Assembly (NCBI GenBank): GCA_951406725.2
Contig: OX597836.1
Coordinates: 31,372,001 to 31,436,000 of the forward strand
DNA from: Octopus vulgaris
Taxonomy: Eukaryota
Direction: 5' to 3'
Length of the DNA: 64,000 nt
The translations under genes were made by a program, and so were the position numbers. The notes beneath the pieces are model-generated. The model searched no databases. It was not told the origin of the DNA and worked only from the letters and a program-made list of their open reading frames with translations. This document shows, one piece after another, positions 40,268 through 62,922 of this stretch; within the stretch, counting starts at the first letter, position 1; every line of letters begins with the position of its first letter.

Positions 40268-41245
40268 TTCTTTTACTTGTCTCAGTCATTTCACTGCGGC
40301 CTTGCTGGAGCACCGCCTTTAGTCGAACAAATCAACCCCAGGACTTATTCTTTGTGAGCCTACTACTTATTCTACCGGTCTCTTTTGTCGAATCGCTAAG
40401 TTATGGGAGTGTAAACACCCCAACATCGGTTGTCAAGCGATGATGGAGGGACATACACAGACACTCAAATACATACATACATACATACATACATACATAC
40501 ATAGCCACTAGACACATTTTTTTCTCTCCTTGTTTTTTTCTGTGTCCCTTTCTGTAGAAGAGCATAGGCTCGAAACGTAAAAGACTTTTTCTATTCCTGA
40601 GCGTTATATTAATACATCTGTTTGTTTTGTACACCACCTGTCTTGGTCTTTTGTTTTTTCGTAAACTCTTACTATATATACGATAGGCGTCTTTCATTTC
40701 TCGTCTACCAAATCCATCCACAAGGCTTTCCTCGGCCTGAGGATATAATAGAAGACGCCCAAGGTGTTACACAGTACGACTGAGCTTTGAACCATGTGGT
40801 TGGGACGCAAGCTTTTTACCACACACTCGCATGCACGCACGCACGCATACACACACACATACACACACACGCACACAGACTGCGACCATGCTGGGGCACC
40901 GCCTTGAAAAATTTTTAGTTGAATGAATCAACCATAGTACTTATTTTTCCTTTTAAGCCTGGTATTTATTCTATCGGTCTCTTTTACTGAACTGCTAAGT
41001 TTCAGGGACATAAACACATCAACACCGGTTGTCAAGCAGTGGCGGGGGCAAACACAGACACGAAGACACACACACATACACACACACGCACACACACACA
41101 CACACATACACATACATGCATATATTCATGCATACATACGACGGGCTTCTTTCAGTTTTTGCCTACCAAATTCACTCACAAGGCATTGGCTATAGTGGAA
41201 GACACTAGCCCAACGTGCCAGGCTGTGGGATTGAACCTGGAACTA
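40268..41245 (-). mobile_element. Two further SINE B copies, the first with an insert
   Basis: Tails near 40268 and 40878; heads near 40820 and 41245. Confidence 0.85.
40502..40672 (+). mobile_element. Short microsatellite-associated repeat (Penelope pLTR/retrozyme-like) with hammerhead-like motif
   Basis: Same element is inverted at 41893-42082 and 62541-62696; CTTT-CTGTAGAA-GAGC/GCTC-GAAAC-GTA-AAAG. Confidence 0.6.
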
Positions 41246-41333
41246 GGATGTTTTATATGTGTTTATGGTTTCATTATAGCAGTCTGATATGAATCCATAA
41301 ACACATATAAAACATCCAAGGGTATAGTTTTTC

Positions 41334-41391
41334 CTCTCTGAAGATATGTTCACGTCATATGAATGAAATTCATCGAAACAGCTGTAAGGGA
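41334..41391 (+). ncRNA. Type I hammerhead ribozyme-like motif (degenerate stem II) in a Penelope-like repeat
   Basis: CTCT-CTGAAGA-(30 nt)-GAAAC-AGCT-GTA-AGGG; palindromic minimal stem III typical of PLE hammerheads. Confidence 0.65.
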
Positions 41392-41480
41392 TCATGATTA
41401 ATTTGTTGTTAATAATAAACAATTATTGACTTCCCAATCTCCATTTTCTTTTTCTTCTTTTTTATGAATATAAACTATAC

Positions 41481-41892: not shown

Positions 41893-41896
<4 letters not shown>

Positions 41897-42082
41897 AGAG
41901 TTTACGAAAAAAAGAAAAGACGAAGGCAGGTGGTGTACAAAACAAACAGATGTATTAGTATAACGCTCAGGAATAGAAAAAGTCTTTTACGTTTCGAGCC
42001 TACTCTCTTCTACAGAAAGGGACACAGAAAAAAACAAGGAGGGAAAAAAATGTGTGTAGTGGCTAACGATCTATCATGGCGA
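41893..42082 (-). mobile_element. Second copy of the short hammerhead-like repeat, flanked by (TA)n
   Basis: Reverse complement of 40502-40672. Confidence 0.65.
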
Positions 42083-42085
42083 CTC

Positions 42086-62514: not shown

Positions 62515-62540
<26 letters not shown>

Positions 62541-62542
<2 letters not shown>

Positions 62543-62696
62543 ATGGGAAGCTTTATGAAAATAAACAAAAGACAAACGCAGGTGGAGTACAAACAAACAA
62601 TTGTATTAGTATGGCGCTCAGGAATATAAATAAAACAAGTCTTTTATGTTTCGAGCCTATGCTCTTCAACAGAAAGATACACAGAAAAAAAAAAAA
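62541..62696 (-). mobile_element. Third copy of the short hammerhead-like repeat, flanked by (TA)n
   Basis: Reverse complement CTTT-CTGTTGAA-GAGC/GCTC-GAAAC-ATA-AAAG. Confidence 0.65.
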
Positions 62697-62783
62697 TATA
62701 TATATATATATGTAGGTCCCGGGTTGAGTCGGGGTTAACCACAGTAAATAAGGTACTCAATACATAGCAGAGTAAATTAATTT

Positions 62784-62890
62784 ATTTTATAGAAGGAGCT
62801 TCTACAGGACTAGAACTGTTTCATTCAAATGAAATCATGATTTCATTTGAATGAAACAGTTCTAGTCCTGTAGAAGCTCCTTCTATAAAA

Positions 62891-62891
<1 letters not shown>
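62784..62891. repeat. Perfect 108-bp palindrome with no spacer
   Basis: 54-bp arms, centre at 62837/62838. Confidence 0.95.

Positions 62892-62922
<31 letters not shown>

What the first reader, a model, noticed from the sequence alone, without database searches (positions are those of the whole stretch)
40548..40583. Minimal hammerhead-like motif with a CUGUNGA core in all three copies
Seen: CTTT-CTGTAGA-A-GAGC(ATAG)GCTC-GAAAC-GTA-AAAG here, and on the minus strand at 41984-42019 and 62641-62676 (CTGTTGA). The topology matches a type I hammerhead: stem I CUUU/AAAG, 4-bp stem II, GAAA, cleavage triplet GUA (AUA in the third copy). Stem III is a loopless ACGU palindrome that could pair only in a dimer, and the conserved A6 is U in every copy. 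Established: Penelope-like elements and retrozymes carry minimal hammerheads that cleave as dimers. Inference: a microsatellite-targeting retroelement family of about 170 bp with a non-canonical ribozyme core.
Basis: partly seen in the sequence, partly recalled or inferred. Interest (0 to 1): 0.72.

Follow-up and report, generated by a model that had tools for sequence, protein, structure and literature searches.

The report
Penelope hammerhead with fixed U6 core
These are end-pieces of a very abundant Penelope-type jumping gene whose small self-cutting-RNA motif carries one changed core letter (U instead of A at position 6) in about 21,000 genomic copies, a change that likely slows or stops cutting, so the element likely spreads from uncut RNA.

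Summary
The three motifs are real. They are not a stand-alone 170-bp family but 5'-truncated ends of a 4.5-kb Penelope-like retrotransposon (1,079-aa RT plus GIY-YIG ORF) whose intact copies carry the motif in both terminal repeats. U6 is the lineage's normal state: 20,953 exact U6 cores against 329 A6; all 43 hammerheads in relatives from other organisms have A6, so U6 is derived. Across eight subfamilies the 36-nt motif changed only at N7 and H17, the two positions a hammerhead leaves free. No trace of cutting was found: no excess of copies starting at the cut, and no U6-snRNA copy joined there, whereas two smaller A6 families show 8 such joints. One canonical A6 family also shows none, so U6 is not proven to be the cause. 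Best reading: a conserved hammerhead fold with strongly reduced cutting; untested at the bench. Architecture is published (Cervera 2014); I found no paper on a natural A6U core, but Lunse 2017 was unavailable. This scan noted the A6U core before, in this genome and others. New variant of a known kind.

The parts
40548..40583 (+). Minimal type I hammerhead motif, copy 1: stem I 40548-40551/40580-40583; core 40552-40558 with U6 at 40555 and N7 at 40556; extra A 40559; stem II 40560-40563/40568-40571; GAAA 40572-40575; palindrome 40575-40578; predicted cut between 40579 and 40580
   Evidence: sequence; numbering by the published min-HHR scheme
40502..40672 (+). 5'-truncated terminal-repeat stub of the Penelope-like element (A7 subfamily), ending in a short TA run
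   Evidence: 76% over 184 columns to the intact element L155; 94-98% to the best 40 genomic copies
41984..42019 (-). Hammerhead motif, copy 2 (U6; one mismatch in stem II)
41894..42084 (-). Stub of the same element (A7 subfamily); 5' end at the common CCATG-box hot spot; (TA)n on both sides
62641..62676 (-). Hammerhead motif, copy 3 (U6, U7; palindrome broken by a G-to-A change)
62539..62693 (-). Stub of the young U7 subfamily; (TA)n on both sides
   Evidence: 92% over 156 bases to the 3' end of intact element L155

Best explanation
These 36 bases are the minimal hammerhead motif in the terminal repeat of a very abundant Penelope-like retrotransposon whose whole lineage has U at core position 6, which likely leaves the fold intact but cutting very slow or off, so that the element likely copies itself from uncut RNA. 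Shown: the window's copies are 5'-truncated 3' ends of a 4.5-kb element with one RT + GIY-YIG ORF and the motif in both terminal repeats; U6 is fixed in this lineage and A6 in outside relatives; copies end at an internal TA run of the element and sit in (TA)n. Inferred: a promoter 60-80 nt upstream of the motif starts the RNA; the element's protein nicks (TA)n DNA and primes reverse transcription at the internal UA run about 95 nt downstream of the motif; copying back to the RNA's 5' end gives the 170-190-bp stubs, which contain the motif whole because the template was not cut. Inferred: U6 lowers catalysis by loss of the A6 contacts and by pairing with A15.1, while selection keeps the hammerhead shape, most likely as part of the RNA that the element's protein binds.
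For: Parent element: L071 has RT-GIY-YIG ORF, 3' UTR, motif, (TA)n twice in a row; 12 elements have the motif twice, 4,464-4,580 bp apart, 95-99% identical to L155, 11 of the 12 with one open frame across RT and nuclease; L155 ORF 1,079 aa, Pfam RVT_1 E 1.4e-7, GIY-YIG E 0.0065, below its cut-off. U6 fixed: 20,953 against 329 A6, with 161 for the same T-to-A change at position 4; 62 of 62 motif rows in 50 ORF-selected loci, some overlapping; 25 of 26 copies found by their tail alone, 0 A6. U6 derived: 43 of 43 motif rows, from 37 of 80 related metagenome loci, have A6; other stem-II families in this genome give 653 A6 (control 14) against 76 U6 (control 25). Fold under selection: subfamily majorities differ at 2 of 36 motif columns (N7, 5 steps; H17, 3 steps) against 27 of 72 tail and 18 of 24 head columns. 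Uncut template: about 33 of 93 copies begin in a 10-nt window upstream of the motif (hand count); 5' ends near the cut are level (50 rows over five upstream positions, 42 over the four positions around the cut, 2 rows dropped, of 94, hand count). No snRNA joint at the cut: 0 of 24, 0 of 3, 0 matches, against 2 insertions for family B (1,847 cores) and 6 for family C (1,208 cores); 55 expected at their pooled rate. U6-A15.1 pair probability 0.38-0.98 in 6 natural U6 copies, 0.00 in 5 natural A6 copies. Literature: HHR mutants do not change insertion and uncut RNA is the main substrate in another PLE (PMC11167929); all single changes in the CUGA turn gave low activity (PMC9901934); A6C is slow in Mg (PMC3088659, PMC7151607).
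Against: No cleavage assay and no raw RNA reads. The snRNA-joint test does not isolate U6: a fully canonical A6 family (3,309 exact cores) also has 0 joints where 8.7 were expected; both silent families have the 4-nt palindrome, the families with joints a 6-nt one, so stem III length may explain the difference; and families B and C were found through their joints, which inflates their rate. The 5'-end test had no working positive control (one search was dominated by deletions and inversions). Keeping every catalytic residue through eight subfamilies is what a working ribozyme would do. The tree behind the subfamilies is weakly supported (17 of 123 branches starred), and most copies in it were picked by their core. 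A6 copies are about twice the T-to-A background. The start site and the priming site are inferred from copy ends only. No intact ORF was seen for the A7 subfamily of window copies 1 and 2 (0 of 7 long copies; they reach the shared 3' UTR, one holds a 25-aa RT piece at 76%).
Confidence: 0.55

Rival explanations
1. The U6 motif is still a working dimeric ribozyme whose cutting matters, but only with help: the element's own protein, or Mn, rescues the U6 core late in the cycle, and cut RNA is not copied into DNA.
For: Only N7 and H17 changed between subfamilies and H17 was never G as a majority; the anole PLE hammerhead cuts only when protein is added (PMC11167929); natural A6C cuts at about 0.3 per min in Mn (PMC7151607); a canonical family also leaves no snRNA joints, so the negative is not decisive.
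Against: 0 joints for 20,953 cores, an upper bound about 18-fold below families B and C; no excess of 5' ends at the cut; U6 favours a competing helix; no reversion to A6 became a main subfamily.
Confidence: 0.22
2. The motif is catalytically dead and is kept for another job that does not need the hammerhead shape: a plain hairpin (U4-G5-U6 paired with the ACG strand) or a DNA promoter element just downstream of the start site.
For: Predicted monomer fold is an extended hairpin; the motif lies 60-80 nt downstream of the 5'-end hot spot; loop II and blocks of the tail are as invariant as the core; no compensatory change inside the lineage.
Against: Change is confined to N7 and H17, the two positions free in a hammerhead; the hairpin would favour U7, yet N7 took all four bases (37 U, 27 A, 19 C, 10 G of 93).
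Confidence: 0.18
3. One reading: an independent non-autonomous element of about 170 bp (retrozyme or SINE-like) that propagates through its own ribozyme-made circles.
For: About a third of copies share both ends; no intact ORF seen for the A7 subfamily; one three-copy run exists (L082).
Against: 5' ends form a continuum from inside the motif to the ORF; the same sequence is the terminal repeat of intact elements; copies are dispersed, and the run in L082 is broken by (TA)n; ends do not lie at the cut.
Confidence: 0.05

Closest known systems
Minimal type I hammerheads (min-HHR) in the pLTRs of metazoan Penelope-like elements (Cervera and De la Pena 2014, PMC4209133); closest single row: Acropora digitifera Neptune element in its Fig. 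S3/Table S1
   Same: Short stem I, extra base between 9 and 10.1, G10.1-C11.1, 4-bp stem II, loopless palindromic stem III, one copy in each pLTR, most copies solo from 5'-truncated elements. Coral-type loci 55-61% identical to this RT carry that very motif with A6.
   Different: U at position 6 in the whole lineage; all 56 rows of Fig. S3 have A6. Their descriptor fixed the core boxes, so it would not have found this form.
Endonuclease-positive PLEs with the CX2-5CxxC linker (Neptune/Nematis; Craig et al. 2021, PMC8557442)
   Same: One ORF, RT then C-terminal GIY-YIG, DKG motif, C-X4-C-X2-C linker, partial tandems forming pLTRs, (TA)n insertion.
   Different: Non-canonical hammerhead core; clade not placed by a tree with named references.
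Natural A6C hammerhead of phage Bcep176 (Perreault 2011, PMC3088659; Naghdi 2020, PMC7151607)
   Same: A natural change at core position 6; slow in Mg.
   Different: C, not U; a single full-size phage ribozyme, not a minimal dimer-type motif fixed in about 21,000 copies; its Mn rescue is untested for U6.
PAc (Poseidon, Anolis carolinensis; Frangieh 2024, PMC11167929)
   Same: Copy ends set by reverse transcription starting inside the RNA, downstream of the hammerhead; uncut RNA as template.
   Different: PAc has a canonical core and primes at a site not homologous to the cut DNA; here the ends fall at an internal TA run that matches the (TA)n target.
Non-LTR retrozymes (Cervera 2020, PMC7229834)
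   Same: Short hammerhead-bearing repeats of animals.
   Different: Those are tandem 150-450-bp units with canonical type I hammerheads; these are dispersed truncated ends of a coding element.

Membership tests
min-HHR of metazoan PLEs | Core C3 U4 G5 A6 N7 G8 A9 ... G12 A13 A14 A15.1 ... U16.1 H17 | tested here: not met
   Every position fits except 6, which is U in 20,953 exact copies against 329 A
min-HHR of metazoan PLEs | Extra base between 9 and 10.1; G10.1-C11.1 pair | tested here: met
   A in 26 of 26, G10.1 26 of 26, C11.1 24 of 26 tail-found copies
min-HHR of metazoan PLEs | Palindromic 15.2-16.2 allowing an intermolecular stem III | tested here: met
   ACGU is the majority in all eight subfamilies; broken in window copy 3
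min-HHR of metazoan PLEs | Position in both pLTRs of an RT-EN element | tested here: met
   12 elements with the motif on both sides of the ORF
min-HHR of metazoan PLEs | Compensatory changes in stems | tested here: inconclusive
   Stems are invariant across subfamilies; double changes at 10.2/11.2 are a mix of paired and unpaired; covariation is clear only across the A6 families
min-HHR of metazoan PLEs | Self-cleavage after H17 as a dimer | not testable with these tools
   No assay; genomic proxies negative but not decisive
EN+ Penelope-like element, Neptune/Nematis type | Single ORF with RT and C-terminal GIY-YIG | tested here: met
   1,079-aa ORF; RVT_1 at 454-643, GIY-YIG at 874-907; homologues carry PF00078/PF26215/PF01541
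EN+ Penelope-like element, Neptune/Nematis type | DKG motif; CX2-5CxxC linker; CCHH in the nuclease | tested here: met
   Read from the translation against the motifs named in PMC8557442; CCHH by eye only
EN+ Penelope-like element, Neptune/Nematis type | pLTRs from partial tandems; (TA)n targets | tested here: met
   TA-type run after the tail in 78 of 93 copies
EN+ Penelope-like element, Neptune/Nematis type | Placement in Neptune rather than Nematis by RT phylogeny | not tested
   No named references at hand; indirect only: nearest outside loci share the hammerhead of the published A. digitifera Neptune element
Non-LTR retrozyme | Tandem 150-450-bp units, canonical type I hammerhead, no coding parent | tested here: not met
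   Dispersed, variably truncated, coding parent present
Non-LTR retrozyme | Expressed as circular RNA | not testable with these tools
   Only contig-level runs of uncertain kind were served

The most novel reading that the evidence does not exclude
U6 is a selected brake, not decay: by pairing with A15.1 it locks the core shut, keeps the capped RNA whole for translation and copying, and let this lineage outgrow the genome's cutting A6 families many times over while the hammerhead shape was kept as the handle for the element's protein: a natural ribozyme turned into a non-cutting structural signal, with the genome's U6-snRNA joints recording which Penelope families do cut in vivo.
Probability: 0.25. 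Interest if true: 0.75.

Novelty: new variant of a known kind. Interest (0 to 1): 0.5.

Why it matters
What the hammerhead does for Penelope elements is open: it is weak in vitro and dispensable for insertion in the one reconstituted system. A young, intact, very successful lineage with a core change predicted to cripple cutting, yet with the rest of the motif frozen, is a ready-made test of whether the fold or the cut is what matters. It also shows that descriptor searches that fix CUGANGA miss the commonest hammerhead form I counted in this genome. The snRNA joints in sister families give a genome-only record that some PLE hammerheads likely do cut in vivo.

Tried and rejected
Rfam scan: no hammerhead among the 150 of 314 rows shown. 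No RT/GIY-YIG match to the parent protein inside the window. First GIY-YIG search led to a different, 781-aa PLE family only about 29% identical, with no same-strand motif by my descriptor in 30 of 30 loci; rejected as the parent. No solved-structure match; Pfam blank for the C-terminal 357 aa. RNA: no RNA holder on record was listed; the four runs laid were contigs with RNA only guessed, no joints or piled ends; no evidence either way on expression, circles or cutting. 5'-end control on a canonical A6 family was unreadable. A7-subfamily junction list (100 of 169 rows shown) was inspected but not counted, as many rows were shifted full copies. My junction patterns would have excluded snRNA joints, hence the separate searches. 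Co-folding did not return the hammerhead dimer as the best structure for any of 11 natural copies. Tree: A6 against U6 needs 10-13 changes and cannot show one origin; a small old A6 subfamily is possible, not shown. Not in print: searches listed no paper on a natural A6U hammerhead or on this family; Lunse et al. 2017 (RNA Biol 14:1499), which describes many PLE hammerhead variants, is not held and could contain it; supplement file 1 of PMC4209133 could not be searched, and the numeric A6U value in PMC9901934 was not seen.

Full report
Observation. The motif is at 40548-40583 (+), 41984-42019 (-) and 62641-62676 (-); 3 matches against 0 in 100 shuffles. All three have U at core position 6. Copy 2 has a mismatch in stem II and copy 3 has lost the palindrome. 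The window lies in a 2.8-Gb genome, G000; that it is an octopus is my inference from its size and repeats and the wording of earlier notes, not a tool result.

Abundance and consensus. The U6 form has 20,953 exact matches, the A6 form 329, reversed controls 0; the same T-to-A change at position 4 gives 161, so A6 copies are 1.5%, about twice background. Among 27 copies found by their downstream tail alone, 26 kept the motif: 25 U6, 1 C6, 0 A6.

What carries it. Copies share a fixed 3' end followed by a TA run (78 of 93) and have variable 5' ends. L071 shows RT + GIY-YIG ORF, pyrimidine-rich 3' UTR, motif, (TA)n, twice. A protein search gave 114 scored matches at 92% identity or more. Of 20 long-frame loci fetched, 12 have the motif on both sides of the ORF, 4,464-4,580 bp apart, 95-99% identical to L155. 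L155 encodes 1,079 aa with DKG, YIDD, a C-X4-C-X2-C linker and GIY-YIG, the layout given for Neptune/Nematis PLEs (PMC8557442, passages). All 62 motif rows in the 50 ORF-selected loci are U6. Window copy 3 is 92% identical to the L155 end; copies 1 and 2 belong to an older A7 subfamily at 73-76% whose long copies reach the shared 3' UTR but for which I saw no intact ORF (0 of 7). In intact elements the upstream repeat runs on through an internal TA run into the 5' UTR, and all downstream ends fall at that run: I infer priming there on nicked (TA)n DNA, like the internal start shown for PAc (PMC11167929, parts 1-2 of 4) but with a matching target.

U6 is derived. In 80 related loci from metagenome contigs, a descriptor free at positions 6 and 7 found 43 motif rows in 37 loci, all A6. 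The nearest (55-61% aa) carry the motif printed for the Acropora digitifera Neptune element (PMC4209133 supplement file 2, parts 1-2 of 3), where all 56 rows are A6. In this genome, families with other stem II sequences give 653 A6 (control 14) and 76 U6 (control 25) matches.

The motif is under selection. A tree of 126 of 166 collected copies (near-identical ones thinned; weak support) gave eight subfamilies. Their majorities differ at only 2 of 36 motif columns, N7 (5 steps) and H17 (3 steps, A or U), against 27 of 72 tail and 18 of 24 head columns; 23 steps would be expected in the other 34 columns at the tail's rate. Most copies were picked by their core, but the tail-found set shows the same pattern. 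Because the stems never changed there is no covariation inside the lineage.

Does it cut? Published data predict a large loss: all single changes in the CUGA turn were low (PMC9901934, passages); natural A6C has kobs under 0.1 per min and prefers Mn (PMC3088659, passages; PMC7151607, parts 1-2 of 4); minimal PLE hammerheads are weak even with A6 (PMC4209133, parts 1-2 of 4; review PMC6765202, passages). Folding adds a second brake: U6 pairs with A15.1 with probability 0.38-0.98 in 6 U6 copies and 0.00 in 5 A6 copies. Genomic proxies: (a) of 93 copies recovered from the first 100 rows (5 rows not fetched), about 33 begin within 10 nt at a CCATG box 60-80 nt upstream of the core, which I read as the transcription start (hand count; the reading was prompted by note e1-8023305); such copies contain the motif whole. 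(b) Among 94 copies that start near the cut, junctions are level: 50 over five upstream positions, 42 over the four that cannot be told apart around the cut, 2 dropped (hand count); the canonical control was unreadable. (c) RtcB joins U6 snRNA to RNA with a 5'-OH (PMC6789731, abstract and outline), the end a hammerhead leaves. The genome has 322 exact snRNA 3'-end matches; most of the 100 rows shown of 278 run into SINE-like repeats. Two PLE-type families that keep A6 have snRNA joined exactly at their predicted cut: family B, 2 insertions, 1,847 cores, and family C, 6 insertions, 1,208 cores; one more case is likely (L544). The U6 lineage has none (0 of 24, 0 of 3, 0), where 55 would be expected at the pooled rate. 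Against over-reading this: a canonical A6 family with 3,309 cores also has none, B and C were found through their joints, and they have a 6-nt palindrome (-8.3 kcal/mol) where the two silent families have 4 nt (-1.7). So the lineage shows no sign of cutting, but U6 is not shown to be the reason.

Mechanism. Most likely (0.55): a hammerhead fold kept by selection with cutting much reduced, and transposition from uncut RNA, as shown in vitro for PAc, whose hammerhead mutants insert normally. Rivals: helped but needed cutting (0.22); dead motif kept as a hairpin or promoter part (0.18); independent retrozyme (0.05). That the copies are PLE ends is close to certain; the function is inferred.

Comparison and novelty. 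It works like, and sits like, a PLE min-HHR and meets every tested feature but A6, so I file it as a variant rather than a plain member. It is not a retrozyme (PMC7229834, passages; bioRxiv 10.64898/2026.07.22.740005, part 1 of 5). Eight literature searches listed no natural A6U hammerhead; Lunse 2017 could not be read. This scan had noted the A6U core before, in this genome and in several others, one called a shark; those notes are leads, not support. Verdict: real, new variant of a known kind, interest 0.5.

Noticed in passing
L463/L464 (G000:C10:96.76 Mb), L471/L472 (C23:13.82 Mb); L504, L535, L536, L537, L559, L560; L544: Copies of spliceosomal U6 snRNA joined exactly at the predicted hammerhead cut of three other PLE-type families (2, 6 and 1 insertions), several as inverted pairs ending in (TA)n: a likely genomic record of in vivo cleavage followed by RtcB ligation.
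   Followed up: partly
L475-L478, L112, L159, L257: Family B hammerhead has two core changes, U3-A8 and C at position 13 (GCAA for GAAA), in 1,847 exact copies, often as inverted pairs, and still shows snRNA joints at the cut.
   Followed up: partly
L515-L534: Family C hammerhead has U3-A8 and an A-U pair closing stem II, 1,208 exact cores.
   Followed up: partly
L451-L474, L479-L508: Most retroposed U6 snRNA copies are joined to the 5' ends of abundant SINE-like repeats (20 of 24; most of 100 rows).
   Followed up: no
L538 (G000:C4:31.80 Mb): Inverted pair of U6 snRNA joined to an AT-rich tail that ends in (TA)n; parent family not identified.
   Followed up: no
L097, L102 and other loci: A young PLE family with many 781-aa open frames has no minimal hammerhead by my descriptor within 1.5 kb downstream of its GIY-YIG domain.
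   Followed up: partly
window 62779-62898: Near-perfect palindrome of about 120 bp just upstream of copy 3, holding GAAAC followed by a CTGTAGAAG stretch, a hammerhead-like core in reversed order; likely an inverted end of another element.
   Followed up: no
window 41235-41400: A palindrome followed by CTGAAGA, two short hairpins and GAAAC; possibly another hammerhead-like repeat between copies 1 and 2.
   Followed up: no
L041-L045, L062: A6 copies with U7 share old-type flanks and cluster near the start of contig C1; a small ancestral A6 subfamily is possible.
   Followed up: partly
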